This document shows, piece after piece, positions 1-23,801 of a DNA stretch of 64,000 bases. Source of the DNA: Acidobacteriota bacterium (lineage in GTDB: Bacteria > Acidobacteriota > Thermoanaerobaculia > Multivoradales > Multivoraceae); contig JAJCXN010000041.1 in the NCBI GenBank assembly GCA_029263415.1, positions 141,338 to 205,337 of the forward strand, in the 5' to 3' direction. The notes beneath the pieces were generated by a model. The model had not been told where the DNA came from, did no database searches, and worked only from the letters and a program-made list of their open reading frames with translations. Made by a program: the position numbers and the translations under genes. Numbering within the stretch: the first letter of the stretch is position 1; each line of letters starts with the position of its first letter.

Positions 1-1578
1 GAGAATCGTTGGCATAAGCCGTTCGTTGCGTACATCCACTCGCACTTTGTAGAGGTCGCCCGAGAGCTTCTCGACGGTTGGCTCAGCCATACTCATCAGC
101 GGCATCTGATCTGCGTGGTAGAGAGTGAAGGCCATGTTTCTGTGGAACAGCTCCATGCTTAAAAAGCGTGGGTTGACCCGGTTGGACAACTTCTTCCAGC
201 CGCCCATCTCCACCTTGCCGTAGGTGGGATGGTCAAACTCCGCCCACTCGACGAACTGGTCGCCGAACTCAAGGAAGTCGTCGAAGAAGAAGCGGCCTTT
301 GCCTCCCGAAATGGCTTGATCTGGATCCTCTTGTTGCTCTTGCAGCAGTGGGCTGTTGAAGTACTGCCCACCGTTCCATAGCTCGTTGGAGAAGGAGACC
401 GCGCCTATGCCGTCGTTGGTCCAGTCGATCGAGCCGCCGTGCACTGAGTAGAGGCCTTGCCAGATGACGATGTAGTCGTAGTAGGGAAGCATGCGCTCGC
501 CGTTTTCACCGAGTTCGTCGTACACCGCTAGGTCAGAGCGTGGGTAGTCGCCGTACCAAGCTGCTCCCGGGCCACGCAAGATCATGCCGCCGGTGTTGTG
601 GTACGACTGCATGCCCGCAATGTTGGGGCGCGTCATCATGAAGTCGTTGATGGCCCGTGCTTCCGGCAGCTGGAACGGATAGTCCATAGCGCCACCTTGG
701 ATGTATTCAGGCTGCCAATCGCTGGCGTAGTTGCGGTTAGGGTCGTAGCCGCCGATCGGGTCTTCGTTGACGCGACCGTCGCCGTCGTTATCAATGCCTT
801 CTTGACCGAGAAGTACCCAATCGCCAAACTCGCCTGCTGGTACGCGCTCGAGCATGCGTGGATCCGCGTGGCTGATGCGCAAGTTGCCTTCACCCGGAAC
901 GTGCTTGCGGATCTGCTCGATCACTCCGTTGCCGTTGAGGTCTTCGGGTGGATCCTCGTCGAACAAACCGTCGCCATCTGAGTCGACTGGAATGTGGCCG
1001 GTTCGAGCGCCTGAGCCGTGGTTGTCGAGAAAGTAGTCGCGACCGTCAGGGTTGACGCTGGGCACCAAGTAGATGACGCGTTCATCCACGATCCGCTGGA
1101 TGTCGGGGATGCGGTCGTAGTTCTCCATGAGGTACCAGAGGGTGTAGAGCGCCACCTCGGCGCCTTGGATTTCGTTGCCGTGCACGTTGGCCTCGATGAA
1201 CATCGCGGCCTTGTTTAACTCGGCGCCTGTGTCGGGGTTGTTGATCGTCATCATCCACATCTCGCGACCGCCATAGCTGTCGCCCAAGGACTGCAACGAG
1301 AGCATGTTGGGCCAGGTCTTCTCCATGGTGCGCAAGCGCTCGGAGATTTCGTCGTGATCGAGCCAACGATCCCATGTGAAGGGAAGGGTGTGCTCGGGGT
1401 CCGATCCGCGCAGCCCTTGCGACGCAGGTGCTTGCGCACTTGCCGTAAGGGTGCCTGCGGCTACCAGGCCGACGACCAAAGTCATCGTGACGAGAGTGGA
1501 GGAGCACAGTCGCCCAGCGCGAAGGCTCAAGGAACGGAGCGCGATTGAACTGAAGTAGGAAGAGTTGTTTGTGGTCAT
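1..1578 (-). CDS. Zinc carboxypeptidase, peptidase M14 family (paralog A). Truncated at its 3' end by the window edge. An alternative start at 1485 gives a signal-peptide-like N-terminus MTLVVGLVAAGTLTASA.
   Basis: I translated the minus strand by hand in the one frame absent from the ORF track; it is continuous from the ATG at 1578 down to position 1 with no stop. The translation contains a canonical M14 zinc motif NVHGNE (HxxE) and a second His-containing motif YHNTGGM. The segment DEDPPEDLNGNG is shared with the adjacent M14 gene. Confidence 0.65.
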   Translation of the reverse strand, partial: MTTNNSSYFSSIALRSLSLRAGRLCSSTLVTMTLVVGLVAAGTLTASAQAPASQGLRGSDPEHTLPFTWDRWLDHDEISERLRTMEKTWPNMLSLQSLGDSYGGREMWMMTINNPDTGAELNKAAMFIEANVHGNEIQGAEVALYTLWYLMENYDRIPDIQRIVDERVIYLVPSVNPDGRDYFLDNHGSGARTGHIPVDSDGDGLFDEDPPEDLNGNGVIEQIRKHVPGEGNLRISHADPRMLERVPAGEFGDWVLLGQEGIDNDGDGRVNEDPIGGYDPNRNYASDWQPEYIQGGAMDYPFQLPEARAINDFMMTRPNIAGMQSYHNTGGMILRGPGAAWYGDYPRSDLAVYDELGENGERMLPYYDYIVIWQGLYSVHGGSIDWTNDGIGAVSFSNELWNGGQYFNSPLLQEQQEDPDQAISGGKGRFFFDDFLEFGDQFVEWAEFDHPTYGKVEMGGWKKLSNRVNPRFLSMELFHRNMAFTLYHADQMPLMSMAEPTVEKLSGDLYKVRVDVRNERLMPTIL

Positions 1579-1587
1579 GATCGGTGC

Positions 1588-3609
1588 CTACCTCAGAGTG
1601 ACGCTGGTGGTGTCGCTGCCGCCCTTTTGGGCACGCAACGTGATGTCTATGGTGTCGCCGCGCTTACCGCGAATGATCCAAGTGAACGACTCTCTTGCCC
1701 CCGAGCCTGCGAGCGACGCCACCGTACTGGTCTTGGAGTTGCCGGTCATCACTGCTTCGGGTTCGATCTGGATCTGAACCGTCACAGGATCGACCGCTCG
1801 AGAGGTCACGCCGTGTTTGAGCGCTGTTGGGAAGTAGCCGGTGTTTTCGATCTCGGCGGTTACCGTGAAAATGCCGCCACCGTGATCTGTGACCTTGGTG
1901 TCTGCAAAGCTCACCTTGGGCAACATCTCGAGCAGTTGCACTGCGAACGCTCCATGCTTAGAGCCGAGCTCATCAACCGCGGCCGAAGGTGCCGGGTTGG
2001 TCAACGCGTAGGGTTCGAAGCCACCGATTTCGACCGCTCCCAGTTGAGGGTGATCGAAGCTTTCCCAGGTGCGGAAGCCGGGTGTCGGTTCGCCTTCTTG
2101 GACTTGGCTCGCGAGGCCCTTGAGTAGGGCTGCGTCTGAAGCGTCGGCTGCAGCGGCGCTGCCTGAAGCACCGCCCCGGCCGCCTCGTCCAGAGGCTCCA
2201 GGTGGTCCGCCTCTGCCTCCGCGTCCGCCCGGTCGGCCTCGACCCTGAGTCGACGTGGCCTCTCCAGCGGTTGCCGCAACGTCTGAAGCGCTGGTCTCTT
2301 CGCTAGGAGAACCGTCCCCTTCGTCAGGGGTTGCTTCGCCGGTTTCGGCCTTAACGAAGCTCCAGCCTGGAGTGGAGAAAGAGGGCACGCCGAACTGAAA
2401 GTAGCCGAACTGAAAGAAGGCGCCCTCGGGTGCCCTGCGGTAGACGGTTTCTGTCACCCCGGTGGTCTCTTTGTAGGTCTCGGCGACCTTCTTGAAGTAC
2501 GGTTGGTCTCCCTTGTTGACTGCAGTCTCGGGCCGGCGGCCTGAGGCAGGATCGTTGTCGCGACCCTTTTGCGCGCCACGCAATGGTGGAGTCGCAGATG
2601 CGACTCCGAAGAATCGGCCGAAGCGACGACCACCTGGCCCGCCTTCGCGATAGTTGCCCACGCTCAACGCAGGAGCATTGGAGGCGCTAGCGAATCGCTC
2701 GAGATCGATGGCGGTGGGGTCCTTTGGGTTGCCATCGCTATCGACGTCATTAGCGAGGTTGTCGCTGTGGCCGAAGGTCAGGATTGCCGCGATGTTGCGA
2801 TGACTGACCATGAAGTCCATCAGTGCTCGCGATTCGCTTTCGCTGACCATGTAGCGGCCAGCGTCTGCCTTCCAGTAGGGGTAGGCGTGCTGAAAGTTGC
2901 GGTTGAGATCGGTGCCGCCGGGGCCGTCTTCGTTGTAGAAGCCGTCGCCGTCGGTGTCTCGGCCCTCCCAGTAGACCGCGTGGGTTCCAGATTCGCCTTT
3001 AGCCGCGTCAGCTTTGGCCATCAAGCGCAATTCATCGGATTGGATCTGGTACTCGCCGTCGGTGTCGAGCACGCGCATCTGCGTGATGAAGCCATCGCCG
3101 TTGAGGTCTTCGGGTGGGTCCTCGTCAATACGACCGTCGTTGTCGTCGTCGTAAGGGGTTGCATTGCCGCGTCGGTTCCACTGCGGTGTTGAGAAGTAGC
3201 TCTCTGCACCGTCTGGGTTGAGGCGTGGAATCACATACACAACGTTGTCTTTGAGGGTGGCTGCCGCATCCTCCGATTGCAGCAGGTGCTCGATTGTCCC
3301 CACCGCGAGCGCGCTGCCGACTAGGTGGTCGCCCTCGAGGTTGGCGACGATCAGGAGGCCTGGTCGATGCTCCGGTTGTTGCGTTCCCTCGGCGGCAATC
3401 TCGACTACCCACAGCTCACGACCTTCTGAGGATGTGCCGATGGATGAGAGTTGGGCGAGCTCGGAAGTGCTGGCGAGTTGCCGGAGCTCTTGGGTCAATC
3501 CGTTGTGATCTTGATACGCCGGTTGCGCGCTCGCGGCGATGCTAGTGAGGGCGGCGGCGATCGCGATTGGCGCGATAGCGGACCAGCCGAGTTTGGAGGA
3601 TGGCGTCAC
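1588..3609 (-). CDS. Peptidase M14-family protein (paralog B), secreted, with a Gly/Arg-rich low-complexity insert
   Basis: 673-aa ORF with a signal peptide (MTPSSKLGWSAIAPIAIAAALTSIAASAQ). It carries M14-like segments (DEDPPEDLNGDGF, FGHSDNLANDVD) homologous to paralog A. A low-complexity tract GRGRPGGRGGRGGPPGASGRGGRGG is encoded around 2160-2260. Confidence 0.75.
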   Translation of the reverse strand: MTPSSKLGWSAIAPIAIAAALTSIAASAQPAYQDHNGLTQELRQLASTSELAQLSSIGTSSEGRELWVVEIAAEGTQQPEHRPGLLIVANLEGDHLVGSALAVGTIEHLLQSEDAAATLKDNVVYVIPRLNPDGAESYFSTPQWNRRGNATPYDDDNDGRIDEDPPEDLNGDGFITQMRVLDTDGEYQIQSDELRLMAKADAAKGESGTHAVYWEGRDTDGDGFYNEDGPGGTDLNRNFQHAYPYWKADAGRYMVSESESRALMDFMVSHRNIAAILTFGHSDNLANDVDSDGNPKDPTAIDLERFASASNAPALSVGNYREGGPGGRRFGRFFGVASATPPLRGAQKGRDNDPASGRRPETAVNKGDQPYFKKVAETYKETTGVTETVYRRAPEGAFFQFGYFQFGVPSFSTPGWSFVKAETGEATPDEGDGSPSEETSASDVAATAGEATSTQGRGRPGGRGGRGGPPGASGRGGRGGASGSAAAADASDAALLKGLASQVQEGEPTPGFRTWESFDHPQLGAVEIGGFEPYALTNPAPSAAVDELGSKHGAFAVQLLEMLPKVSFADTKVTDHGGGIFTVTAEIENTGYFPTALKHGVTSRAVDPVTVQIQIEPEAVMTGNSKTSTVASLAGSGARESFTWIIRGKRGDTIDITLRAQKGGSDTTSVTLR

Positions 3610-3948
3610 GAAGTGTCTCCTGGGAAGGGCGGTTGAGTTTCTCTGGTTCTATGACGTAGAAGCTGTGGGGCCTGTTTTGCTCTAGGTGAGAGTTTATTGG
3701 GCTTAGACTGGCCGAACCTGTTGTCTCAGCAGATGGTGGCAAGAATCGATGCCAAGAACGCTTGAGGATTCGGTGGTGGTTGCGCGCGTTCGTCAAGCAT
3801 ACGAGCAGTGATTGACCGACTCTGGGTTCAGGCGAGCTGACCTTGCCTTTTAACTGACCGATCGGTCAATATGGGCCAATAGAAGTTGTTGAGCAACTCA
3901 ACAAGAGCCCCGTTCCAAATGACCTTTTCGATGGATGAGTTTCGAAGA

Positions 3949-4269
3949 ATGCCCAAGATCAAGTTTGTTAGCCACGATGACACGGAGTTCGTCGTGGACG
4001 CTAAGGCCGGAGTGTCGGTAATGGAAGCTGCCATGGACCACAACGTCCCGGGTATCGACGCCGATTGTGGGGGCTGTTGCTCCTGCGCAACGTGCCATGT
4101 CGTCGTGTCCCCCGATTGGGTCGCGCGGGCCGGCAGCCCAGGAGACATGGAAGAAGACATGCTGTCGATCCACGATGATCGCCACCCCGGATCACGCCTC
4201 AGCTGCCAGATCGAAATGAGTGATGAACTCGATGGCCTAGAGGTCAGGGTCCCCGAATTTCAAATGTAG
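3949..4269 (+). CDS. [2Fe-2S] ferredoxin, putidaredoxin/adrenodoxin type
   Basis: The Cys motif CGGCCSCATCH...C is typical of adrenodoxin-family ferredoxins. The N-terminus MPKIKFVSHDDTEF aligns with putidaredoxin-like starts, so the internal ATG at 3949 is preferred over the track start 3886. It lies 76 bp upstream of a P450 gene. Confidence 0.85.
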   Translation: MPKIKFVSHDDTEFVVDAKAGVSVMEAAMDHNVPGIDADCGGCCSCATCHVVVSPDWVARAGSPGDMEEDMLSIHDDRHPGSRLSCQIEMSDELDGLEVRVPEFQM

Positions 4270-4345
4270 TGATGCTCCTTGGGCGCAAGCTTGAGGTCTG
4301 CAGCATGTTGCTAGTGACCGCAGTTTCTTTGAGCAGGAGAGAACG

Positions 4346-5638
4346 ATGACCACCGCCGAAGTACCGATTCCGCCAGCCTCAGCGCACGCTGAGGGAATGT
4401 TTGACGTCCCGTTGATGCCGCTCGATCCTTATGACGTTGCGATCGAGGATGTCGATGTTTCGCAGCCCCATCTATTCGAGGCCAATCGGCAGTACGACTA
4501 CTTTGCACGCATGCGCAAAGAAGCGCCGATCCACTACAGCGCGCGAGGCGAGTTCGGCCCGTATTGGTCGTTGACCAACTACCAGGACATCCAGCACGTC
4601 GATACCAACCACAAGGCGTACTCTTCAGAGCCTGCAATTGTGCTTCAGGATCCGCTAGTGGATTTCACCATGCCGATGTTCATTGCTATGGATCCACCCA
4701 AGCACGATCGTCAGCGCAAGGAAGTGAGTCCCGTGGTCGGGCCGCGCAACCTCAAGGCGCTCGAGCAGACGATCCGCTCCAGGGTTTGCACCATTCTCGA
4801 CTCGCTGCCCGTTGGCGAGTCCTTCAATTGGGTCGACCTGGTCTCGATCGAACTCACCACTCAGATGTTGGCGACGCTGTTCGACTTTCCATTCGAGGAT
4901 CGGCGCAAACTCACCTACTGGTCTGACGTCGCCACTGCTCGAATTGAACCTGGTGGCTTGGTGGAGTCGGATGAAGAACGCCAAGGTGTGCTGCGCGAGT
5001 GTTTGGAGTACTTCAGCAGGTTGTGGCAGGAGCGCGCTCACAAGGAGCCGGGCAACGACATGATCTCGATGCTGGCGCACGGCGAGTCGACCAAGGACAT
5101 GCCGCCGATGGAGTTCTTGGGCAACCTCGTCCTGCTGATCGTTGGCGGTAATGACACCACGCGTAATTCCATCAGTGCTGGCGTGCTCGGTCTGAACCAG
5201 TTCCCCGATGAGTATCAGAAACTACGCAACGATCCGTCGCTGATTCCTAACATGGTTTCGGAGACCATCCGTTGGCAGACACCACTGGCCTATATGCGTC
5301 GGACCGCTCTTGAAGACATCGAATACAAAGGGCACACCATCAAAGAAGGCGACAAGATCGCGATGTGGTATGCCAGTGGCAACCGTGATGCCGCAATCTT
5401 CGAAGACGCCGATCGAATGATCATAGATCGCGACAATGCGCGCAGGCACATTTCGTTCGGCTTTGGTATCCACCGTTGCATGGGTAACCGACTTGCCGAA
5501 CTTCAGTTGCGCGTCTTGTGGGAAGAGATCCTGCCTCGCTTCGAACAGGTCGAAGTGGTGGGTGACCCAGTGCGCGTGCGTTCGAGCTTTGTCCAGGGTT
5601 ACAGCGAGTTGCCGGTCCGCCTGCACGCAAGAGCGTAG
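4346..5638 (+). CDS. Cytochrome P450, CYP153-like family (alkane/terminal hydroxylase type)
   Basis: Heme-binding signature FGFGIHRCMGNRLAELQLRVLWEEI (FxxGxHxCxG). The N-terminal blocks GPYWSLTNYQDIQHVDTNHKAYSSE and MFIAMDPPKHDRQR match conserved CYP153A blocks from memory. It sits in a ferredoxin-P450 arrangement. Confidence 0.88.
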   Translation: MTTAEVPIPPASAHAEGMFDVPLMPLDPYDVAIEDVDVSQPHLFEANRQYDYFARMRKEAPIHYSARGEFGPYWSLTNYQDIQHVDTNHKAYSSEPAIVLQDPLVDFTMPMFIAMDPPKHDRQRKEVSPVVGPRNLKALEQTIRSRVCTILDSLPVGESFNWVDLVSIELTTQMLATLFDFPFEDRRKLTYWSDVATARIEPGGLVESDEERQGVLRECLEYFSRLWQERAHKEPGNDMISMLAHGESTKDMPPMEFLGNLVLLIVGGNDTTRNSISAGVLGLNQFPDEYQKLRNDPSLIPNMVSETIRWQTPLAYMRRTALEDIEYKGHTIKEGDKIAMWYASGNRDAAIFEDADRMIIDRDNARRHISFGFGIHRCMGNRLAELQLRVLWEEILPRFEQVEVVGDPVRVRSSFVQGYSELPVRLHARA

Positions 5639-5750
5639 GGCAGCGTGTCCGCTTTTGACAGCCGACTGCGAAGGATGGAGTGGTAACGAAGACTGTTGAT
5701 AGCTGGTCGGCTTAGCGGCGACGCCGCGCGGAGCCAAAGGGAGCTTTGGA

Positions 5751-6929
5751 GTGAAGCGGCTCGCGGTTTTTCTCGACGGGACCTGGAATGACCCAGCTAG
5801 CAGGACCAATGTGTCTCGGCTGCACGGCTTGGTCGCTGACGTTGGCACAGATGGCGCACGACAACTCGCGTACTACGACACAGGCGTCGGCACCAAACGC
5901 TTTGAGAAGCTGCGGGGTGGCGTGGGTGCTTATGGGCTCTCTAGGAACGTCAGACAAGCCTACGGCTGGCTGAAGGAGCAGTACGAAGAGGGAGATGAGG
6001 TCTTCGTCTTCGGTTTCAGTCGGGGAGCGTTCACCGCGCGCAGCGTTGCAGGAATGATCGCTCGCTATGGGTTGCTTATGCCCGACTCGTCGGTGACGGT
6101 GGATGAACTCTACGAGCTCTACCGCGCCGAAGCGAAAGGCAAGCCTGGGCCGGGCTCTGTGGAGGAGGCCCTTGTTAGTCGCTTGAAAGAGAATGCCCGC
6201 CGGATACGCGTCCGCTTTGTCGGCGTCTGGGACACGGTCGGTACTTTGGGTGTGCCGTTTGGAAACATCCCGGGTATCAGTCGCAAGCAGTTTCGCTTCC
6301 ACAACACCCGGCCCAGCCGATGGATCGACGAAGGGTGTCAGGCGCTTGCGATCAATGAGAATCGAAGGGCCTACGACGCCGTGTTGTGGACCAACTTTCT
6401 GGCCTTGAATCCTGCGACCGGGAAGATCGCCGACCCACTGCGCCGTTCGCAGGTTCACCATCCGTCGTTCGAACAACGGTGGTTCATTGGAGTGCACTCG
6501 AACGTCGGCGGTGGTTATCCAGATGACGTTCTAGCTCTGCCGCCACTGTCATGGATCCAACGCCGCGCCGCCGGTGCGGGCCTGGCCTTCACCGCTACTG
6601 TTGCGTTGAGCGGTGACGAGCACTTGCGAGGAGAGCTGGTTGACTCGTTCAAGAGGTTCATGAAGGGCATCTATCAGATCGTCCGGTTCAATCGGCGTCA
6701 CTATCGCGAGATCGGTCGAGCCCTGGTGGAACGCAGCGGTCGCTCGGTCGGCTTGCTGGAGACAGTCAACGAGAGCATCGATCGCACGGTGATCGAACGC
6801 TGGCAGCAGGACGGTGAATACCGGCCAAAGAATCTGCGCGAGTTCGCCGATCGAGCCGGCATCGACCTTGAGGCGCCGGCGCCTGCTGACAGCCTAAAGG
6901 TCGAGAGCGACTGGGACTCTCACACCTAG
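5751..6929 (+). CDS. DUF2235 alpha/beta-hydrolase (Tle1-like phospholipase family)
   Basis: The N-terminus MKRLAVFLDGTWND and YYDTGVGT are hallmarks of DUF2235. It has a GxSxG nucleophile elbow (GFSRG) and a VWDTVG block. GTG start, with AGGGA about 9 nt upstream. Confidence 0.7.
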   Translation: MKRLAVFLDGTWNDPASRTNVSRLHGLVADVGTDGARQLAYYDTGVGTKRFEKLRGGVGAYGLSRNVRQAYGWLKEQYEEGDEVFVFGFSRGAFTARSVAGMIARYGLLMPDSSVTVDELYELYRAEAKGKPGPGSVEEALVSRLKENARRIRVRFVGVWDTVGTLGVPFGNIPGISRKQFRFHNTRPSRWIDEGCQALAINENRRAYDAVLWTNFLALNPATGKIADPLRRSQVHHPSFEQRWFIGVHSNVGGGYPDDVLALPPLSWIQRRAAGAGLAFTATVALSGDEHLRGELVDSFKRFMKGIYQIVRFNRRHYREIGRALVERSGRSVGLLETVNESIDRTVIERWQQDGEYRPKNLREFADRAGIDLEAPAPADSLKVESDWDSHT

Positions 6930-7166: not shown

Positions 7167-8393
7167 ATGGCGCAACCGCGCAAAGCCGCAGTCGGCTTCA
7201 TTCTGGTCACCCTGTTTCTCGACATCCTCGGCATCGGGATCATCATCCCGATCCTGCCCGGGCTGATCAAAGAGTTTGCCGGAGGCAGCACCGCGAGCGC
7301 GGGCTTCTACGTTGGCGTGATTTCCGCCAGCTATGCAGCGACACAATTCATCTTCGCGCCGATTCTCGGGGCGCTGTCTGACCGTTTCGGGCGCAGGCCG
7401 GTGATCCTGGTGGCCCTGTTCGGGCTTGGAATTGACTACCTGATTCAAGGTTTCGCGCCTAACCTGGCTTGGCTCTTTGTCGGTCGCATCATCGCTGGAG
7501 TCATGGGTGCCTCCTACACCAGCGCTAATGCTTACATCGCCGATGTGTCGACCCCAGAAACCCGCGCCCGGAACTTCGGGTTCGTTGGCGTCGCTTTTGG
7601 CCTCGGTTTCATCGCTGGCCCTGCCCTTGGCGGTTTCCTAGGCGGTATCAGTCTGCGGCTACCGTTCTTCGTTTCCGCAGGGCTGGTGCTGGTGAACTGG
7701 CTCTATGGTTTCTTCGTCTTGCCTGAGTCTTTGGCTCCTGAGAACCGCAGCCCCATGACGCTCTCGAAACTCAATCCTCTGGGCGCAATTGTGCATCTCA
7801 AGACCTATCCAATGGTGGCTGGACTCGCCGGAGCCTTCGTTTTCTTCGGTCTCGCGCAGCGCGGCCTTGAGAACGTCTGGGTGCTTTACACCACGCACCG
7901 CTACGGCTGGAACGAAGCCACCAATGGCCTAGCGCTCGCCTTGGTCGGGGTCATGGCAGTCATCGTCCAGGGTGGGCTGGTGAGGCCCGTGATCGGCTGG
8001 CTCGGTGAGCGCAAAGCGATCATCTATGGTCTTGCGTTAGGCGTCTTTACCTACATCTTCTACGGGCTCGCCAGCCAAGGCTGGATGCTGTACGTTGTAA
8101 TCATCGTTGGTTCCCTAGGAGGAGTCGCTGGTCCTGCCATCCAAGGCCTTGTCGCAGGCAGTGTCGCTCCCAACGAGCAAGGCCGCGTGCAGGGCGCCCT
8201 CGCCGCCCTCCAAAGCGCCACCAGCATCTTCGCCCCGCTCGTCTTCAGCGCCGGCCTGTTTAGCTTCTTCACCTCCGAGAACGCTCCCTTCCAACTTCCA
8301 GGGGCGCCCTTTTTCTTTGGCGCCGTCTGCACGCTAGCGGGCTTTGTCCTCGTGCTCCGCCAGTTCCGCCGAAGCCCAGAAGTTGCCGCCTAG
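7167..8393 (+). CDS. MFS efflux transporter, TetA/TCR-like family
   Basis: Multiple TM helices. MFS motif A region GALSDRFGRRPVILVAL; the N-terminal LDILGIGIIIPILPGL is similar to tetracycline-type MFS pumps. The ATG at 7167 is preferred over the TTG at 7152. Confidence 0.8.
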   Translation: MAQPRKAAVGFILVTLFLDILGIGIIIPILPGLIKEFAGGSTASAGFYVGVISASYAATQFIFAPILGALSDRFGRRPVILVALFGLGIDYLIQGFAPNLAWLFVGRIIAGVMGASYTSANAYIADVSTPETRARNFGFVGVAFGLGFIAGPALGGFLGGISLRLPFFVSAGLVLVNWLYGFFVLPESLAPENRSPMTLSKLNPLGAIVHLKTYPMVAGLAGAFVFFGLAQRGLENVWVLYTTHRYGWNEATNGLALALVGVMAVIVQGGLVRPVIGWLGERKAIIYGLALGVFTYIFYGLASQGWMLYVVIIVGSLGGVAGPAIQGLVAGSVAPNEQGRVQGALAALQSATSIFAPLVFSAGLFSFFTSENAPFQLPGAPFFFGAVCTLAGFVLVLRQFRRSPEVAA

Positions 8394-8417: not shown

Positions 8418-9074
8418 TCAGCGGCAAGTCCCGGTCAGTGGACTCTCCGATCGACTCCGCTCGGAATCGCGGTTGTCCCGCACAGATGTTGGTCCGCGCA
8501 GATGTTGGTCCGTAGTTCTTCGCCGAAGATGTTGAGAAACATGGGGATGCATAGGTGGAAAATCGGCAACCACCACTGCCCGGAGAGTGCGATACCGAAG
8601 AAGGGACCGGGCTGGATCAGGTTCATGAAATTGGAGACTTCGGCTGGCATGGTGTAGAACACGATTGAACTCAGCGGCCGGAAGAGCTGTGGCGAGAAGG
8701 CAGCAAATGCCGCAAAGCCAAGTACCCCGCCGATCATGGCAAGTAAAGCCTTTTTCCCCTTTGTTCTCCAAGAGGATTGCAAGGACCGCGACGCCGGCCG
8801 CCTTGGGATAGATCCATGGAAAGCCGAATGGAATCCAAAGAATCGTTAGTGCAAGTGGCCACAGCCAAACACTGTTCCCACCAAGAGTTTGCCGTCGCAT
8901 GCGATCCCGAAACCGCGCCCAGGTCCAGGAGTTGCCCTCTCGCCGATAGGCGATGAGGGCAAACGCGAACAACGCTGAAAGGGGAGCCACGAACACGGCC
9001 ACGAAGATGCTGAAGGGCGCGAACTCGCTATTCTTGGGAAGCCGAATCCCCACGAACAATAGCCAGGTAATCAC
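8418..9074 (-). pseudogene. Integral membrane protein gene with an apparent frameshift at an A/G homopolymer (~8760-8790); function unknown
   Basis: The 218-aa ORF is hydrophobic/TM-like for ~97 aa and then degenerates. A second ORF (8435-8782) in another frame begins exactly there and continues TM-like (LLAMIGGVLGFAAFAAF...WWLPIFHLCIPMFLNIFGEELR). The junction is in the run gagaacaaaggggaaaaaggc. Confidence 0.4.
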
Positions 9075-10980: not shown

Positions 10981-13608
10981 TTATGAACTGGACATAACGT
11001 GCACGTTGGTGTCCAACGGTTCGAGTTCGTCTTCGATCGCGTTTTCTGTTGGGAGTTCCAATTGGGCGGTTTTGAGGGTCAAGAGAAGTTGCGCCTCTCG
11101 AGCATCGGTCGAATCGTCGAATGCCCTGCCTGACTCGCAGTATCGTCGCAATTGTTCTCGAGCTTCGCCTTTGCGGCCAACTCGAACCAGGTGCCGAAAC
11201 AACGAATTCCTCGCCCGGAGTTCGTAAAGATAGGCGCCCTGTTGTTGAGCCATCTGAATGGCCAGGTGAAACCCCCGCTCTGATCCGGTCGTTGTTTCGA
11301 TGCCGTCGGCTTCGCGTTGCGCGAACTGGATTTCGGCCATCAAGCGCTGAAGCTCAGCAGAGTGAGCTTGGTCGGCGGCGATGCTGGGCTGAGTCAACGC
11401 TTTGTAGGCGCCCTCTAGGTCGCCCTGGCGCAGGTGCGCCTCGCTTTGCCAAGACCGGTAGAGGCCGCCGAGGAAGATCGGGCCGGTGGGTTCGCGCTTC
11501 TTAAAGACCTGGTCTAACCTCTCTACGGATTCGAGGCTCGGTTCGAGATTGTAGGACGCCCAAGTGTGCAGAACGCGGCCAGCATCTCCGTACCACTCGA
11601 AGCCGTTCTCGTCTGCGATGGTAATCGCCCGCTTGGCGGCCTTAGCGGCCACCTCGAAGTCGCGGGCGAGACAAGCCGCCGTCGCTTCTGACGCCCAAAT
11701 GAGTAGTCGATCGTAGGGATTGGTCGCGCTGTCGAGGCGCTTGAGCATCTGTCGGCGCGCGAGGAGCGCCTCGCGGTGCCGGCCCTGAATGTGCAGTGCC
11801 CAAGCGCTATAGCCGTGGGCTGCGACGATGATGTCCCAGGTCTGAGGCTCAAGCTCGTCCTCGTTCGCTTGAGTGACCTCTTGCATCAACTCCAAGGTTC
11901 GATCGAATCTGCCTCGTCCGTAAGCGTCAAATGCCGCACGAAGGCACGCCAAAGGATAGAAGCTCGGACGATCCTGAGCCAGTTCGAGCAAGTCTTCACA
12001 CAGTTGAGGTGCGTCTTCCGAGCCAGTGAGTGCTGCGTTCAGGGTCCGACCCATGTGACTCCTCAAGATGATGTCCGCATCTCCACTCGCCGCGCTCAGA
12101 GCGTAGGCTCGATCTAGCGCCTCTCGAACTTCTGGATGTGAGTAGCCTTCCAACCATGTCCTGACGGTGGCTAGCTGCGTCCACCGTTCCGCGCTGCGCC
12201 GAGCCTGCTGTTGCGGTTCTGGTAAGCCATCTAACGCTTCTGCCGCTCGCCGAAGAAGTACCACTGCATGGGAAAAGGAAAAACGTTGGTGTGCATGGCT
12301 TGCAGCGACCTCTAGGTAGCGCACGTGCCGTTCGATGTCGCCAGCAGCTTCAAAGTGACCCGCCAGCTGGGCCGCGATCTGTTCAGTGCAGCCCTCGTAG
12401 GCGGCTTCGAGCCGCAAACCAATCCGACGGTGAAGTTCGCGGCTGCGGACTGCGCTGAGGCCTTGCAACAGGTGCTGGCGGTAGACGTCGTGATGGAACG
12501 CAAACTGTGAGCTGACGGTGTTGTCCGGCCACCGACTGTCACCTGTCCGTTGGAGGAAAAAGTCAGCCGCAGCTAGTTGCTCGAAAAGGCGCTCGACGTG
12601 TAGCCCGTCGCTGTCCGTGCCGGCGGCAACTTCTGCGGCCGTGAACTGCCCGCCTGCCACACTTGCGGCTTTGAGGATCTCTTTTTGCAGCTTGGGAAGC
12701 TCAGCCAGCTGAAGCCTGAGGAGCGTGGCGATGCTCTCGGGCAGCGAGGCTCCGGATCGCTTATGCAAATCCTCTCCGCGCCTGACCGCCCCTGACAGTG
12801 CCTCCAAGAAGAGAGGGTTTCCCCCGCAACGATCCCGGACCGCCGCCCAGTCGAAGTCCTCCGTGTCGCCGAAGCGTTGGTCGAGGTAGTTCTCAACCTC
12901 GGTTTCGTTCAAAGCTGCAAGTTGTAGATGGACAACGTTGTCGAGAGGTGTGAGCGTATCGACCGATGCAGTCAACGGGTGTCCGGAGATCTGGGCTGCA
13001 GAGGCTCTGAATGTGCAGATCACCAGTAGCTGCGTTGGTGCTTGCCTTCTGGAAATGGTCGCCACGAGGTCCAAGGTAGCGCTGTCGCACCAATGAAGAT
13101 CCTCAATCCACAACACAAGAGGGGTGCTCTTGGCAAGCGAAGAAATCACGTGGGCGCCCTCTCGCAGCATGCGAGCTGGACCTATTCCTTGCACGCTCGC
13201 AGCGAGCTCTTGTAGCTGCTGGGCAGACCAAAGCCACGGCATTTGCACCGCCCAACTGGGAGCTTCTCGGGCGATGGTGTCGATCGCCAAGGCTCGATCC
13301 GGCTGAGCCTCGATCGCCTGCTCCAGCGCCTCTAGGGCCGGCATGAAGGGCTCACATTCTCCTTGTTGTAACTGGCAACGGCCAACCGCGACTACCGCTG
13401 GTTGTTCGCTGGGGCCGGGTTCATTCAACCGAGACACGAAGGCCTTGGCCAGGCTGGTCTTGCCGATGCCTGCTTCGCCGCTGACCAGAACGATCTGGGG
13501 CTCGCAATGCTGGGCCTTTTGCCAGGCTGCGAGAAGGGCCTGCAGCTCCTGTTCTCGACCGACAAAATGAGCCGGCGCTTCAGGTCGCGGTTGGTCGTGC
13601 GGTGTCAT
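10981..13608 (-). CDS. AAA_16 (STAND-like) ATPase with a TPR region; large ATP-dependent regulator module
   Basis: Walker A VSGEAGIGKTSLA near the N-terminus, Walker B-like LVLWIEDLHWCD, and a long helical TPR-like C-terminal region. Its start overlaps the upstream winged-helix ORF's stop by 1 nt (TAATG). Confidence 0.8.
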   Translation of the reverse strand: MTPHDQPRPEAPAHFVGREQELQALLAAWQKAQHCEPQIVLVSGEAGIGKTSLAKAFVSRLNEPGPSEQPAVVAVGRCQLQQGECEPFMPALEALEQAIEAQPDRALAIDTIAREAPSWAVQMPWLWSAQQLQELAASVQGIGPARMLREGAHVISSLAKSTPLVLWIEDLHWCDSATLDLVATISRRQAPTQLLVICTFRASAAQISGHPLTASVDTLTPLDNVVHLQLAALNETEVENYLDQRFGDTEDFDWAAVRDRCGGNPLFLEALSGAVRRGEDLHKRSGASLPESIATLLRLQLAELPKLQKEILKAASVAGGQFTAAEVAAGTDSDGLHVERLFEQLAAADFFLQRTGDSRWPDNTVSSQFAFHHDVYRQHLLQGLSAVRSRELHRRIGLRLEAAYEGCTEQIAAQLAGHFEAAGDIERHVRYLEVAASHAHQRFSFSHAVVLLRRAAEALDGLPEPQQQARRSAERWTQLATVRTWLEGYSHPEVREALDRAYALSAASGDADIILRSHMGRTLNAALTGSEDAPQLCEDLLELAQDRPSFYPLACLRAAFDAYGRGRFDRTLELMQEVTQANEDELEPQTWDIIVAAHGYSAWALHIQGRHREALLARRQMLKRLDSATNPYDRLLIWASEATAACLARDFEVAAKAAKRAITIADENGFEWYGDAGRVLHTWASYNLEPSLESVERLDQVFKKREPTGPIFLGGLYRSWQSEAHLRQGDLEGAYKALTQPSIAADQAHSAELQRLMAEIQFAQREADGIETTTGSERGFHLAIQMAQQQGAYLYELRARNSLFRHLVRVGRKGEAREQLRRYCESGRAFDDSTDAREAQLLLTLKTAQLELPTENAIEDELEPLDTNVHVMSSS

Positions 13609-13925: not shown

Positions 13926-14128
13926 GGTCCATCGCCGATTGTATCGACTATAGCTAGAACTATCTCTAGTTCAAGAGCAGGGTCATGGCTCCTTGCCCGG
14001 AGGACGAACTCAGCCAGCAACGCGAACTGGTGCTCCTCCGGCAACCTCGTGATCAGTCCTGGGCACCGATCGGTCCCGGGCACAGGGTAAGGTGGTCACC
14101 ACAGGACAAACAAAACGGGGGTTGGACA

Positions 14129-15091
14129 ATGAAGCAGAACCATTCGGGTGCGCAAGCCCGAGGAGCACGTAGCAAGGGTGGACGGCTGCGCTTGAAAACC
14201 AACTGTTCGCGTTCGCCGATGGCGCTGGTGGCGTTGCTGTCGCTCGTGCACGTCGCTGGTGGCGTTGGTAATGCTCAGTCACAGCTTGCTCAGCCGTCCG
14301 TGCCCAAGGCCACTGTCGAACGACTGTTGCGAGTCGGCAAGGCACTTCCTGGCCGTGTTGAACTCAAGCTTACCCTTGGCGAACCAGCAGATCCCTTAGG
14401 CGACTTCCTGCCACGGGATGCCCGCTTTGTAGCGGGCGTCAGTTGGGAATCTGGAGCGCTGGCGCTTCTCGAGATGAGGCTGCCGCAAGAGGAGATACGG
14501 GACCAGCTGTTGGCCGCGGTGTCGAATACCCAGCTCTCGCTCATCCTGCCTCAAGGTTATGGCTTTGTAGCAAGTCCCGAAGGCTTTCCCGTCGTTTTCT
14601 GCCAAGGCGCAGAACGGCGTCTGAGAGTATGGCTGGTCGATGGAGGCGAGCAAGCCTCGGCCGATGAGCCAGCAGACTTAGCGTTGTTGTACACGGAGGG
14701 CGCCAGCGCGTGCCCAGAGGCACGATCGCGTGCAGCGCGAGCCAGCGTGCTGCCCATTCTCGTCGCACCGCCAAACGTAGAGGTTACTCGCGGTGGGAGC
14801 ACCAGTAGCAGCGGCGAATCGGAGAGCCAGCACGTGACGCTATCTTCCAGTCTCACACCGACCGAGCTGGTTCGTCACTTCGCTCTCGGGATGGAGGAGC
14901 AGTCCTGGCAACCGAACGTCCCGGTGGAACTCGAAAGTTTCGCGATGCAGACCTTCACTGCCTATGTGTTAGACGAGGCGACTGCCCGGACGTTCGCCTG
15001 GCACGCCACTCTGACGGTGCGCAGGGTAGCCAATGTGAGGATGAGGAGCGGCCGTATCACTGTGGAAAAGCTGGGCCCTGTCGACGAATAA
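14129..15091 (+). CDS. Hypothetical secreted protein
   Basis: Long ORF with coding-like composition. The internal ATG at 14129 is preceded by GGGGG and followed by a signal-peptide-like MALVALLSLVHVAGGVGNAQS. No recognisable domain. Divergent from the wH/AAA regulator pair. Confidence 0.45.
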   Translation: MKQNHSGAQARGARSKGGRLRLKTNCSRSPMALVALLSLVHVAGGVGNAQSQLAQPSVPKATVERLLRVGKALPGRVELKLTLGEPADPLGDFLPRDARFVAGVSWESGALALLEMRLPQEEIRDQLLAAVSNTQLSLILPQGYGFVASPEGFPVVFCQGAERRLRVWLVDGGEQASADEPADLALLYTEGASACPEARSRAARASVLPILVAPPNVEVTRGGSTSSSGESESQHVTLSSSLTPTELVRHFALGMEEQSWQPNVPVELESFAMQTFTAYVLDEATARTFAWHATLTVRRVANVRMRSGRITVEKLGPVDE

Positions 15092-17143: not shown

Positions 17144-17262
17144 CGAGTGGTTGACCAGGGCGTTAGCAAGTGTTGGCGGCCGCCTGCTAGGAGTAGTTCG
17201 ATGATCGATACCTCCTCGGAGGTTCAGCCGGTCCGGAGAATGGTCAAAAGATGAACGGGCGA

Positions 17263-18318
17263 TCAATCCTGGGTCGCTTCTTGCGCGCGGCGTTGCAACT
17301 CCTCCCTTTCTAGAAGTCGAGCTCCGCGCAGGATGCCGCCCATGGCGTAGTTGCCTTCGTGACAGGCGTATTCGTACAGCCGGTCGTCGGTCAGCGGCCA
17401 CATTTGCGCGCCCGAATAGGGGGCTGCATAGTTTGTATCGTTGACCGTGAACTCATAGAGCAGTTCGTTCTGATTCTTGCGAGTGAAACGTTCGACGATG
17501 TGCAAACCCTCGCGGGCTTGGTTGGGCGTTTCGAGGAAGTTAGTGGTATCCACAACCAGCGTGTCGCCTTCCCAATGGCCGATGGAGTCGCCGCCGAGTG
17601 ATCGGATGTCCGACGGCGGGTGTTCGCTATTGAGGCGAATGACGCGGGCCCAGTGCATCCATTCCACCAAGATCATCACGTGGTTGTCGGTCTGCACGAT
17701 CGTCTTGAGGTTGTTGTAGAGCACCGAGCGCATTGGCACGGTGGTGACTGTGAGATAGATGCAGCGCTCGATCAGCGGCAGCGTTTCCGGATTGTCGTAC
17801 GGTCCACTCTCGAGATCGAGCCACCAGGCGTTGCCGGTGTTCTCGAAGGTGTAGGGGCGGATCTTGGCGAGACGCGCTTTGCCCGCTGAGGACAACGCCG
17901 GCATCTGACCATTGGGCGGATCGGTGAGCACCGAGGTGCGGTACTTGTCGCCGATCTTGAACATGCTGTTGCCCGGGTCGACCCAGAAGCTGTTGTAGCC
18001 GCCAACTTTGCCGGCAGCGCCAGCCGAGCCGTCGCCTCCGGGAGGCGGTGCCTCGCGGTTGGGATCGCTGTCGCGATCGGCGAAAGCCATGGCCGCCGCT
18101 GCGGAGCGCTCGATGGCCTGCGCCTGTTCGTCGGTGAGTTCCTGTTGATCGCCGAGCCCTGCCGCGCGGGTGAAAGGGGTGAGGGTCGCGATGTCGTAGT
18201 TGCCGGAGAGGTCTGGACGACCGCTTGGGGTCCTCGGCACTTCGTCTTGACTCAGGACTGGAAGGGAAATGAGGCTGAGAAGAACAGCGAGTGGAATGAT
18301 GTGTGGTGTCTTGGACAT
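17263..18318 (-). CDS. Conserved secreted protein of unknown function (paralog 1 of 2 in the window)
   Basis: Signal peptide MSKTPHIIPLAVLLSLISLPVLSQ. Shares PRTPSG.PDLSG.YDIATLTP, GGYN.FWVD, VLYNN, WxGDTLVV.T.NF and the C-terminal YEYACHEGNYAMGGIL with the ORF at 55159-56271. GGAGAG lies upstream of the ATG at 18318. Confidence 0.6.
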   Translation of the reverse strand: MSKTPHIIPLAVLLSLISLPVLSQDEVPRTPSGRPDLSGNYDIATLTPFTRAAGLGDQQELTDEQAQAIERSAAAAMAFADRDSDPNREAPPPGGDGSAGAAGKVGGYNSFWVDPGNSMFKIGDKYRTSVLTDPPNGQMPALSSAGKARLAKIRPYTFENTGNAWWLDLESGPYDNPETLPLIERCIYLTVTTVPMRSVLYNNLKTIVQTDNHVMILVEWMHWARVIRLNSEHPPSDIRSLGGDSIGHWEGDTLVVDTTNFLETPNQAREGLHIVERFTRKNQNELLYEFTVNDTNYAAPYSGAQMWPLTDDRLYEYACHEGNYAMGGILRGARLLEREELQRRAQEATQD

Positions 18319-18557
18319 AGCGCTCTCCGGAAAGTTCACGCGTCGTTGCCAGAACCGTTGGGGCCTCGTCGAGGACAAGGGTGGTTTCGGTAGGAGGGGG
18401 CCTTTGATGGACGCGAACCCTGAGTGTACCGGTAGCGTGTTTGGCCGGAGCTAGATGGTGTCGGCGCCTAGCATCGCACGCTCCCACTTGCGGTGAGCGC
18501 GATTTGCCGATCAACTACTGCCCAATCCCGACGACGAACTGCTTGAGGCTCCTCGAT

Positions 18558-20603: not shown

Positions 20604-20666
20604 GGCCCGCTCGGAGGCCGGCACGCCCGAGCTCGGATTCGATCTTGGGGTAAGTAGCCTTCGCGG

Positions 20667-22526: not shown

Positions 22527-22688
22527 AGAAACCCTCTTTGGAGGTCATGGGGCGAGAGAGGTTCCGCATGGAATGCGGGGTCCAGCGCCTGAGGTGTAGC
22601 TCGATCGTTCGGCGGTACGTCAGTCTAGGACAGCGATTGGTTCGTAGTTTGTTGAAATGGACAACTAGTTTGTCAGAATGGTCATTCC

Positions 22689-23681: not shown

Positions 23682-23801
23682 GCGCATTCGGACAGTACTC
23701 GTGAGAATCGACACAGCTTCAAGAGAGCTCCTCAGGGGAGAGTTCGCCTTCATAGGCTAGGCTATGGGGTAGTTCCATTCTTGAGAGGATCCCCAAAGGC
23801 C

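What the first reader, a model, noticed from the sequence alone, without database searches (positions are those of the whole stretch)
3949..6929. Ferredoxin-CYP153 pair followed by a DUF2235 hydrolase instead of a ferredoxin reductase
Class I CYP153 systems need an FAD ferredoxin reductase. Characterised clusters are usually fdx-CYP153-fdR with an AraC regulator. Here the gene after the P450 is a Tle1-like DUF2235 alpha/beta hydrolase (GFSRG nucleophile), and no reductase or regulator is present in the window. This is either a trans-supplied reductase or an atypical operon pairing a hydroxylase with a lipase/esterase-like enzyme.
Basis: partly seen in the sequence, partly recalled or inferred. 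Interest (0 to 1): 0.5.

Follow-up and report, generated by a model that had tools for sequence, protein, structure and literature searches.

The report
Ferredoxin-CYP153A pair beside unrelated hydrolase
A ferredoxin gene and a CYP153A-type cytochrome P450 gene form an ordinary two-gene unit whose reductase is encoded elsewhere, as in its relatives, and the hydrolase gene after it looks like a chance neighbour.

Summary
The three genes lie on the + strand:
- 3949-4269: a putidaredoxin-type [2Fe-2S] ferredoxin.
- 4346-5638: a P450 that is 60% identical to CYP153A7.
- 5751-6929: a DUF2235/Tle1-like serine hydrolase (GFSRG, invariant Ser90/Asp161/His249).

No ferredoxin reductase is encoded anywhere in the 64 kb.

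The arrangement is not unusual for this clade. All five closest CYP153 relatives recovered with context (72-76% identity, Acidobacteriota-type metagenome contigs) carry ferredoxin then P450, followed by a convergent unrelated gene. None has a reductase. Across 87 related CYP153 loci, 3 have a reductase in the flanks fetched, up to 8-10 kb but often much shorter (2 of the 24 with at least 5 kb on both sides), and 0 have a DUF2235 gene. Across 40 DUF2235 loci (best 57% identity), none has a P450 or ferredoxin nearby, and no neighbour is conserved.

The best reading is a self-contained ferredoxin-CYP153A module served by a reductase encoded elsewhere. The hydrolase is a lineage-specific neighbour that may be co-transcribed but shows no sign of functional coupling.

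One small extra finding: a palindrome, TGRCCG-NN-CGGYCA, lies 85-188 nt upstream of the ferredoxin gene in this window and in several relatives. It is probably an operator site.

Interest is low.

The parts
3855..3868 (.). Perfect palindrome TGACCGATCGGTCA, 94 nt upstream of the ferredoxin ATG. Probably an operator for a regulator encoded elsewhere.
   Evidence: The pattern TGRCCG-NN-CGGYCA matches exactly upstream of the ferredoxin gene in L041 (-188) and L126 (-85). It matches with 1 mismatch in L040 (-143) and 2 mismatches in L038 (-141). In the 1.54 Mb of sequence held when the background was scanned, the only exact matches were the two upstream of ferredoxin genes. L126 was fetched later, and only the 400 nt upstream of its ferredoxin gene were scanned, giving the third exact match. 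Function is inferred.
3886..3904 (.). Second perfect palindrome, TTGTTGAGCAACTCAACAA, between the first palindrome and the ferredoxin start.
   Evidence: Seen in the sequence and picked up as a hairpin by the terminator scan. Not found on a visual reading of the upstream regions of the relatives. Significance is unknown.
3949..4269 (+). Putidaredoxin/adrenodoxin-type [2Fe-2S] ferredoxin, 106 aa. It is the electron donor to the P450.
   Evidence: Pfam Fer2. PDB 3hui 4e-32 and putidaredoxin about 1e-21. Cys40/46/49/86 are present. A 106-aa orthologue sits directly upstream of the P450 in L038, L040, L041, L042 and L126 at 64-71% identity.
4346..5638 (+). CYP153A-subfamily cytochrome P450, 430 aa. 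The predicted activity is terminal hydroxylation of alkanes or other aliphatic chains.
   Evidence: PDB 6hqg 2.5e-164 and CYP153A7 3rwl 3.7e-160, with 60% identity. Haem, I-helix and ExxR motifs are intact. AGGAG lies 8 nt upstream of the ATG. Activity is inferred from family membership.
5751..6929 (+). Compact cytoplasmic DUF2235 (Tle1-like) alpha/beta serine hydrolase, 392 aa. It is a same-strand neighbour and most likely functionally independent of the P450.
   Evidence: PF09994 at 227 bits. Ser90, Asp161, His249 and the FLDGTWND motif are invariant or nearly so across 18 and 38 homologues. The AlphaFold model has pLDDT 88.6. Its best structural matches are Tle1 6sjl and 4o5p, E about 1e-9. 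A profile search against PDB finds 4o5p at 6.5e-5. No signal peptide is evident: the fold starts at residue 2. It is not linked to a P450 in any of 40 homologous loci.
7167..8393 (+). MFS efflux-type transporter (DHA1/Tet(A)-like). It is the next same-strand neighbour and is not part of the module.
   Evidence: Pfam MFS_1 1.6e-49. NCBIfam Tet(A/B/C) scores 325 bits, below the 475 cut-off. No homologue occurs in any DUF2235 or CYP153 locus. The start at ATG 7167 is inferred from the sequence. The 7152 TTG product is not on record.

Best explanation
The locus holds a self-contained two-gene module: a putidaredoxin-type [2Fe-2S] ferredoxin followed by a CYP153A P450. The organism is probably an Acidobacteriota bacterium.

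**How it most likely works**
- The P450 hydroxylates terminal methyl groups of alkanes or related aliphatic chains (inferred from family).
- It receives electrons from the co-encoded ferredoxin.
- That ferredoxin is reduced by an NAD(P)H-dependent flavoprotein reductase encoded elsewhere in the genome (inferred).
- A conserved palindrome upstream of the ferredoxin gene suggests control by a regulator that is also encoded elsewhere (inferred).

**The hydrolase**
- The DUF2235 gene downstream encodes a catalytically intact, cytoplasmic Tle1-superfamily serine hydrolase.
- It landed next to the module in this lineage only.
- It may be read through from the P450 promoter, but nothing indicates that it works with the P450.
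For: **Shown: gene identities and intact motifs**.

**Shown: no reductase in 64 kb**
- Pfam on the ORFs of 150 aa or more that looked like genes found none.
- tblastn with validated reductase queries found none.
- Neither partial ORF at the window ends looks like a reductase on reading its translation: the 5' one resembles the neighbouring M14 peptidase, and the 3' one was confirmed as a carboxyltransferase.

**Shown: the two-gene unit is the conserved one**
- L038, L040, L041, L042 and L126 (72-76% P450 identity) all have a 106-aa ferredoxin, then the P450, then a convergent unrelated gene.
- None of them has a reductase or a DUF2235 gene.

**Shown: the wider sample**
- Of 87 CYP153 loci, 3 have a reductase, and two of those three are near-duplicates.
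- Of the 24 loci with at least 5 kb on both sides, 2 have a reductase.
- None of the 87 has a DUF2235 gene.

**Shown: the DUF2235 side**
- 37 species-representative loci plus the three closest homologues (51-57% identity) have no P450 or ferredoxin nearby.
- No neighbour is conserved among them.

**Shown: the palindrome.** It is conserved upstream of the ferredoxin gene in the window, L041 and L126 (exact) and in L040 (1 mismatch).

**Shown: composition.** Base composition and codon usage of all four genes are native.

[quoted passage not shown] Sharing a single reductase among P450s is established for class I systems such as those of Rhodopseudomonas palustris and Novosphingobium aromaticivorans; this last point rests on my own knowledge and was not checked here.
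Against: - The rest of the genome could not be read. The exact proteins are recorded on a 355,580-bp contig, but the locus was not retrievable. A reductase encoded elsewhere is therefore inferred, not seen.
- The DUF2235 gene is on the same strand, only 112 nt downstream. No intrinsic terminator is predicted in the gap, so co-transcription is possible.
- Many comparison loci are short contigs. Reductase types other than the putidaredoxin-reductase type would have escaped the tblastn screen of those loci.
- Substrate and activity of the P450 are inferred only from family membership.
- The best NCBIfam hit, below its cut-off, is a secondary-metabolism P450: SolI, 446 bits against 850.
Confidence: 0.8

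Rival explanations
1. A genuine four-gene operon (ferredoxin, CYP153A, DUF2235 hydrolase, MFS transporter). In this reading the hydrolase releases fatty acids or alcohols from esters or lipids for omega-hydroxylation, or hydrolyses esters of the hydroxylated product. The transporter then moves substrate or product.
For: - All four genes are on the same strand, with gaps of 76, 112 and about 237 nt.
- No intrinsic terminator is predicted in the junctions.
- The hydrolase has an intact Ser-Asp-His set.
- Other alpha/beta hydrolase or esterase genes occur near two CYP153 relatives, L127 and L128.
Against: - The pairing is found in 0 of 87 CYP153 loci and 0 of 40 DUF2235 loci.
- In the five closest relatives the position after the P450 is taken by a convergent unrelated gene.
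- The MFS gene is not conserved next to either partner.
- The DUF2235 gene has its own Shine-Dalgarno sequence and a 112-nt spacer.
Confidence: 0.07
2. The P450 is not an alkane or fatty-acid hydroxylase. It would instead be a CYP153-like tailoring enzyme of secondary or other specialised metabolism, with a different physiological substrate.
For: - The best NCBIfam model is the solanimycin P450 SolI, 446 bits.
- A ketosynthase-like gene (20667-22526) is present in the window.
- CYP153 loci in relatives sit in very varied contexts.
Against: - The SolI score is far below its cut-off of 850.
- Identity to the alkane hydroxylase CYP153A7 is 60%, with all signature motifs present.
- No biosynthetic genes are adjacent.
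- Two relatives at 69-71% identity are followed by a Zn-dependent alcohol dehydrogenase or a GMC (AlkJ-like) oxidoreductase, as in alkane pathways.
Confidence: 0.1
3. The hydrolase is a type VI secretion phospholipase effector (Tle1), as the Pfam name suggests.
For: - PF09994 match.
- The best structural matches are Tle1 and TleB.
Against: - It is 392 aa against 520-880 aa for solved Tle1 proteins. Identity to them is only 15-20% and TM-scores are 0.34-0.43.
- A plain sequence search against PDB finds nothing. A profile search gives only E 6.5e-5.
- No VgrG, Hcp or other T6SS domain appears in any scanned ORF of the window.
- No adjacent immunity-like lipoprotein gene is present.
Confidence: 0.03

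Closest known systems
Class I CYP153A alkane/fatty-acid omega-hydroxylase systems (CYP153A7 of Sphingopyxis, PDB 3rwl; the Alcanivorax borkumensis ABO_0200-0203 operon)
   Same: - The P450 is 60% identical to CYP153A7 and carries the haem-binding, GGNDTTRN and ExxR motifs.
- A putidaredoxin-type [2Fe-2S] ferredoxin gene lies directly upstream, as with ABO_0200 and ABO_0201.
   Different: - No ferredoxin reductase, alcohol dehydrogenase or AraC regulator is in the operon.
- The unit is only two genes.
- The host is probably Acidobacteriota, not Proteobacteria or Actinobacteria.
Ferredoxin-CYP153 two-gene modules in uncultured Acidobacteriota-type genomes
   Same: - The same 106-aa ferredoxin (64-71% identity) followed by the P450 (72-76% identity).
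- No linked reductase.
- The same upstream palindrome in L041, L126 and L040.
   Different: In those loci the P450 is followed by a convergent unrelated gene. Here a same-strand DUF2235 gene and an MFS gene follow it.
Class I P450 systems with unlinked shared reductases (palustrisredoxin reductase of R. palustris; ArR/Arx of N. aromaticivorans). From my own knowledge, not checked here.
   Same: The ferredoxin resembles Pux (3hui, E 4e-32) and Arx (3lxf, E 5e-24). The reductase is not encoded next to the P450.
   Different: The reductase of this organism has not been identified.
Tle1 type VI phospholipase effectors (PDB 4o5p, 6sjl, 9j3f) and DUF2235 proteins in general
   Same: - The alpha/beta-hydrolase core.
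- The FDGT-like N-terminal motif, the GFSRG nucleophile elbow, the DTV Asp and the HS(D/N)VGGGY His motif.
   Different: - About half the size, with no accessory or VgrG-binding domains.
- No T6SS genes or immunity gene nearby.
- It belongs to a widespread subfamily of roughly 370-410 aa with no conserved gene neighbourhood.

Membership tests
CYP153 family, subfamily A (cytochrome P450 nomenclature) | More than 40% amino-acid identity to a named family member, and more than 55% for the subfamily | tested here: met
   60.1% identity over 396 aligned residues to CYP153A7 (3rwl), E 3.7e-160. The match to CYP153D17 (5h1z) is weaker, 1e-127.
CYP153 family, subfamily A (cytochrome P450 nomenclature) | Intact haem-thiolate motif FxxGxHxCxG, ExxR, and the CYP153 I-helix signature GGNDTTRN | tested here: met
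   FGFGIHRCMG at 371-380, ETIRW at 306-310, GGNDTTRN at 267-274.
CYP153 family, subfamily A (cytochrome P450 nomenclature) | Terminal hydroxylation of alkanes or fatty acids | not testable with these tools
   Needs expression with redox partners and product analysis.
Canonical three-component CYP153 operon (ferredoxin, P450, ferredoxin reductase, with or without AraC) | [2Fe-2S] ferredoxin gene adjacent to the P450 | tested here: met
   3949-4269, 76 nt upstream of the P450.
Canonical three-component CYP153 operon (ferredoxin, P450, ferredoxin reductase, with or without AraC) | FAD-dependent ferredoxin reductase (Pyr_redox_2 + Reductase_C) in the same operon | tested here: not met
   None in 64 kb by Pfam or tblastn. 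The upstream gene is divergent, so the operon cannot extend out of the window.
Canonical three-component CYP153 operon (ferredoxin, P450, ferredoxin reductase, with or without AraC) | Adjacent AraC-family regulator | tested here: not met
   The only AraC-type gene is at 22689-23681, 17 kb away, beside PQQ dehydrogenase genes.
DUF2235 / Tle1-like catalytic domain (PF09994) | Pfam match above the gathering score | tested here: met
   227.2 bits against 27, residues 2-270 covering profile positions 1-285 of 287.
DUF2235 / Tle1-like catalytic domain (PF09994) | Conserved GxSxG nucleophile with Asp and His partners | tested here: met
   Ser90 and His249 are invariant. Asp161 is invariant among 18 homologues and conserved in at least 90% of 38. 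These residues align with the GFSRGA, DTV and HSDVGGGY motifs of Tle1 4o5p.
DUF2235 / Tle1-like catalytic domain (PF09994) | Tle1-like fold | tested here: met
   The model has pLDDT 88.6 and pTM 0.90. Top Foldseek PDB hits are 6sjl_E at 1.5e-9, 4o5p at 2.7e-9 and 9j3f at 6.5e-8. TM-scores are only 0.34-0.43 because the targets are much larger.
Type VI secretion effector Tle1 | Encoded with VgrG or other T6SS genes and a cognate immunity gene | tested here: not met
   No T6SS-related Pfam domain in any scanned ORF of the window. The neighbours are a P450 and an MFS transporter.
Type VI secretion effector Tle1 | Multi-domain architecture (520-880 aa) with accessory or VgrG-binding modules | tested here: not met
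   392 aa. The catalytic core begins at residue 2.

The most novel reading that the evidence does not exclude
In this lineage the DUF2235 hydrolase has been recruited into the CYP153 transcription unit and acts on the same lipid pool. For example, it could release fatty acids or alcohols from wax or other esters for omega-hydroxylation. That would give the first physiological role for a non-T6SS DUF2235 enzyme. Separately, the conserved TGRCCG-NN-CGGYCA palindrome may define an undescribed regulon controlling CYP153 in Acidobacteriota.
Probability: 0.07. Interest if true: 0.5.

Novelty: new member of a known kind. Interest (0 to 1): 0.15.

Why it matters
It matters mainly as a correction of expectation. 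The textbook operon of ferredoxin, CYP153 and reductase comes from a handful of cultivated alkane degraders. In the environmental relatives sampled here, a linked reductase is the exception: 3 of 87 loci.

Annotation pipelines and surveys of hydrocarbon-degradation potential should therefore not require a linked reductase before calling a CYP153 system functional. Anyone expressing this enzyme will need a surrogate reductase.

The conserved upstream palindrome gives a concrete handle for finding the regulator. The DUF2235 adjacency by itself does not justify experiments.

Tried and rejected
1. **Retrieving the source contig to look for the reductase.** The exact P450, ferredoxin and hydrolase are on record for a 355,580-bp NCBI contig, but the locus could not be fetched.
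2. **Conserved neighbours of the DUF2235 subfamily.** ORFs within 5 kb in 18 loci were clustered. Nothing recurred beyond pairs of close relatives.
3. **Clustering neighbours of 84 CYP153 loci to find a recurrent reductase.** None emerged. Reductase queries had to be picked by motif from L074 and L078.
4. **Defence-system reading of the hydrolase and nearby unknown ORFs.** There were no PADLOC hits.
5. **Intrinsic terminators or structured RNA in the junctions.** No terminator was predicted. Folding energies equal those of shuffled sequence, z about 0. There are no Rfam families or tRNAs in the window.
6. **Horizontal-transfer signal.** GC, GC3 and codon usage of the four genes are typical of the window.
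7. **The divergent 464-aa flavoprotein next to the ferredoxin gene in L042 as a possible alternative reductase.** It has only weak Rossmann-motif hits, is unique to that locus and has no homologue in the window.
8. **van Beilen et al. 2006 (PMC1352210).** It is not held in the library. Nie et al. 2014 gives domain fusions but no operon statistics.
Full report
**1. What is there**

*Ferredoxin, 3949-4269.* This gene encodes a 106-aa [2Fe-2S] ferredoxin.
- Pfam Fer2, E 3e-9.
- Its best solved relatives are P450-associated ferredoxins: 3hui at 4e-32, 4ltu, 3lxf, terpredoxin and putidaredoxin.
- It has the Cys40-X5-Cys46-X2-Cys49-X36-Cys86 ligand pattern.

*P450, 4346-5638.* This gene encodes a 430-aa P450.
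- It matches solved CYP153 structures at E 1e-150 to 1e-164.
- Identity is 60.1% to CYP153A7 (3rwl) and 61.8% to 6hqg. This is above the 40% family and 55% subfamily thresholds of P450 nomenclature.
- The haem-binding FGFGIHRCMG, the I-helix GGNDTTRN and ExxR are intact.

*Hydrolase, 5751-6929.* This gene has a GTG start with GGAG 7 nt upstream. It encodes a 392-aa protein matching Pfam PF09994 (T6SS_Tle1-like_cat, formerly DUF2235) at 227 bits. It carries GFSRG at residues 88-92.

*Neighbours.*
- The gene upstream of the ferredoxin is a divergent M14 carboxypeptidase (1588-3609, minus strand).
- A Tet(A)-like MFS transporter follows on the + strand, probably starting at ATG 7167.

**2. Is a reductase or regulator present?**

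I scanned the ORFs of 150 aa or more that looked like genes against Pfam; overlapping shadow ORFs and four short ORFs of 154-192 aa were skipped. I also inspected the two partial ORFs that run off the window ends. These are a second M14-like peptidase and an acyl-CoA carboxyltransferase.
- None is a Pyr_redox_2, FNR or FprA-type flavoprotein.
- tblastn of the window with two genuine ferredoxin reductases taken from related loci finds nothing at E <= 1e-3. One of the two queries was confirmed as Pyr_redox_2 + Reductase_C.

So the absence of a reductase in 64 kb is real. The upstream gene is divergent, so the operon cannot extend beyond the window.

The window does hold an AraC-type regulator (DJ-1/PfpI + HTH_18, 22689-23681). 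It sits 17 kb away among PQQ-dehydrogenase genes.

**3. Is this unusual for this P450?**

No.

*The closest relatives.* The exact protein is on record only for one 355,580-bp contig that could not be fetched. Its closest relatives could be read in context.
- L038 (76% identity, Acidobacteria MAG), L040, L041, L042 and L126 (72-74%) all carry a 106-aa ferredoxin directly upstream of the P450.
- In every case the next gene is an unrelated convergent gene.
- None has a reductase or a DUF2235 gene within 8-10 kb.
- Two further relatives (69-71%) lack the ferredoxin. They are followed by a Zn-dependent alcohol dehydrogenase or a GMC oxidoreductase, and again have no reductase.

*The metagenome scan.* This added 80 loci at 56-65% identity.

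| Set of loci | Loci | With a putidaredoxin-reductase-type gene | With a DUF2235 gene |
|---|---|---|---|
| First 84 loci | 84 | 3 (two are near-duplicates) | 0 |
| At least 5 kb on both sides | 24 | 2 | 0 |
| Ferredoxin directly upstream of the P450 | 14 | 1 | 0 |

*Conclusion.* The characterised operon with a linked reductase, such as A. borkumensis ABO_0200-0203 (PMC6850023), is not the rule among this enzyme's relatives.

**4. Is the hydrolase linked to the P450?**

*Comparative evidence.*
- A scan of one genome per species found 37 loci encoding relatives of the hydrolase. The best was 49% identical, and the hosts included Verrucomicrobiales, Pirellulaceae, Acidimicrobiia and Gammaproteobacteria.
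- None has a P450, a ferredoxin, or homologues of the window's MFS or M14 genes within 10 kb.
- Clustering of their neighbours shows no conserved partner at all.
- The closest homologues in the large protein collection are only 51-57% identical. Their loci (L123-L125) also lack a P450.

*A possible related genome.* One of those loci lies on a 4.4-Mb contig that also encodes an 80%-identical copy of the window's carboxyltransferase. That genome is therefore fairly closely related. In it the hydrolase sits between transglutaminase-like genes and an F420H2-quinone-reductase-like gene.

*Composition and transcription signals.*
- Composition and codon usage of the four window genes are native.
- No intrinsic terminator is predicted in the 112-nt spacer, and the spacer has no unusual structure.

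Read-through transcription therefore cannot be excluded. Nothing comparative supports a functional pairing.

**5. What the hydrolase is**

- Across 18 and 38 homologues, the N-terminal FLDGTWND motif, Ser90 in GFSRG, Asp161 in VWDTVG and His249 in GxHSNVGGGY are invariant or nearly so.
- A profile of the subfamily reaches Tle1 (4o5p) only at E 6.5e-5, aligning exactly these motifs. The single sequence finds no solved relative.
- An AlphaFold model has pLDDT 88.6 and pTM 0.90. Its best structural matches are Tle1 (6sjl, 4o5p), TleB (9j3f) and Legionella lpg2422, at E 1e-9 to 4e-6. Identity is 14-20% and TM-scores are 0.34-0.43, because these proteins are about twice as large.
- The fold starts at residue 2, so the protein is probably cytoplasmic (inference).
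- No T6SS domains occur in the window, and there are no PADLOC defence models.

It is best described as a compact, catalytically competent member of the DUF2235 superfamily with unknown substrate. It is not a type VI effector.

**6. A regulatory element seen on the way**

A perfect palindrome, TGACCGATCGGTCA, lies at 3855-3868, 94 nt upstream of the ferredoxin ATG. Matches to the pattern TGRCCG-NN-CGGYCA upstream of ferredoxin genes in relatives:

| Locus | Mismatches | Position relative to the ferredoxin start |
|---|---|---|
| window | 0 | -94 |
| L126 | 0 | -85 |
| L041 | 0 | -188 |
| L040 | 1 | -143 |
| L038 | 2 | -141 |

- The motif is absent upstream of relatives that lack the ferredoxin gene.
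- In the 1.54 Mb of sequence held at that point, the only exact matches were the two upstream of ferredoxin genes (window and L041). There were 22 one-mismatch matches in the same 1.54 Mb. L126, fetched later, added a third exact match at the same relative position; only the 400 nt upstream of its ferredoxin gene were scanned.
- Within the window alone, one match is what chance would give. The evidence is the positional conservation.

I read this as the operator of a regulator that is not encoded next to the module (inference). A second palindrome at 3886-3904 is specific to the window.

**7. Mechanism and comparison with known systems**

*Mechanism.* The most likely mechanism is an ordinary class I P450 chain:
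1. NAD(P)H reduces an FAD reductase encoded elsewhere.
2. The reductase reduces the [2Fe-2S] ferredoxin (3949-4269).
3. The ferredoxin reduces CYP153A (4346-5638).
4. CYP153A hydroxylates a terminal methyl group.

The first step is inferred from family knowledge and from the comparative pattern. The substrate is inferred from 60% identity to CYP153A7 and from alcohol-oxidising genes next to two relatives.

*Comparison with known systems.*
- It works like the characterised CYP153 systems.
- It does not meet the operon definition of ferredoxin, P450 and reductase with an AraC regulator.
- It matches a two-gene arrangement that is common in uncultured Acidobacteriota-type genomes.

*Host.* The assignment to Acidobacteriota rests only on the names of best hits.

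**8. Verdict**

- The reductase-in-trans alternative is supported.
- The operon pairing a hydroxylase with a lipase is not supported.
- This is a new member of a known kind, of low interest.
- The small residual novelty is twofold: the hydrolase might have been recruited in this lineage (about 7%), and the upstream palindrome looks like a real and testable operator.

Noticed in passing
window 3855-3868; L041 7419-7432; L126 7544-7557; L040 5813-5826; L038 9436-9449: A conserved palindrome, TGRCCG-NN-CGGYCA, lies 85-188 nt upstream of the ferredoxin gene of the ferredoxin-CYP153 module in several lineages. In the 1.54 Mb scanned for background, the only exact matches were those upstream of the ferredoxin genes of the window and L041. 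L126, fetched later, has a third exact match; only the 400 nt upstream of its ferredoxin gene were scanned. It is probably an operator. The regulator is unknown and not adjacent.
   Followed up: partly
window 3886-3904: A second perfect palindrome, TTGTTGAGCAACTCAACAA, lies just upstream of the ferredoxin start. It was not seen in the relatives' upstream regions.
   Followed up: no
window 18441-26595: A cluster of possible alcohol-oxidation genes lies 12-20 kb downstream of the P450.
- PQQ-dependent alcohol/glucose dehydrogenase (18441-20603)
- Ketosynthase-like protein (20667-22526)
- AraC/DJ-1 regulator (22689-23681)
- Second PQQ-like beta-propeller (23781-25259)
- Cytochrome-c/Cu-monooxygenase-like protein (25249-26595)

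These could oxidise alcohols made by the P450. This was not tested.
   Followed up: no
window 1-3609 (minus strand): Two tandem M14 zinc-carboxypeptidase-like genes. One is 1588-3609. The other is a partial paralogue running off the window start at 1-1587. Both share an EDPPEDLNG(D/N)G motif.
   Followed up: partly
window 7167-8393: An MFS transporter that resembles Tet(A/B/C) tetracycline efflux pumps. It scores 325 bits, below the 475-bit cut-off, so it is a DHA1-type pump of unknown substrate and not a called resistance gene.
   Followed up: partly
window 8418-9074 (minus strand): A 218-aa ORF with no family match and atypical codon usage: GC3 is 0.56 against about 0.69, and the correlation with window codon usage is 0.29. 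It is either not a real gene or a foreign one.
   Followed up: no
window 10981-13608 (minus strand): An 875-aa AAA_16/STAND-type NTPase. It partly resembles the C-terminal part of the TOMM kinase/cyclase fusion protein, far below the cut-off. It has no PADLOC hit.
   Followed up: partly
window 13985-15091, 15227-17401, 17263-18378, 53759-55129, 55159-56271: Five sizeable ORFs (368-724 aa) have no Pfam match even at E 0.1. The 15227-17401 ORF was tested only at E 0.001.
   Followed up: partly
L125 1-14666; L124 2976-4145: Two of the closest DUF2235 homologues sit in mobile or defence-like surroundings. In L125 these are LmuB_C, DUF6119 and a phage integrase. In L124 there is a Fic protein. This hints that the hydrolase subfamily travels as an accessory gene.
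   Followed up: no
L042 and L126 (P450 relatives) and L123 (DUF2235 relative), all from ENA sample ERZ25072999: One metagenome holds CYP153 relatives at 73-74% identity on 1.28-Mb and 12.6-kb contigs. It also holds a 57% DUF2235 homologue and an 80% carboxyltransferase homologue on a 4.4-Mb contig. If the 1.28-Mb and 4.4-Mb contigs (11x and 12x coverage) belong to one genome, the two genes are unlinked in a relative of this organism.
   Followed up: partly
L127 9594-10607; L128 9312-10964 and 7094-7846: CYP153 relatives at 69-71% identity that lack the ferredoxin gene are followed by a Zn-dependent alcohol dehydrogenase or a GMC (AlkJ-like) oxidoreductase. L128 also has a divergent small esterase-like hydrolase upstream.
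   Followed up: no
L043-L122: Only 14 of the first 84 CYP153 loci have a putidaredoxin-type ferredoxin directly upstream. Most environmental CYP153 genes sampled here have neither redox partner nearby.
   Followed up: partly
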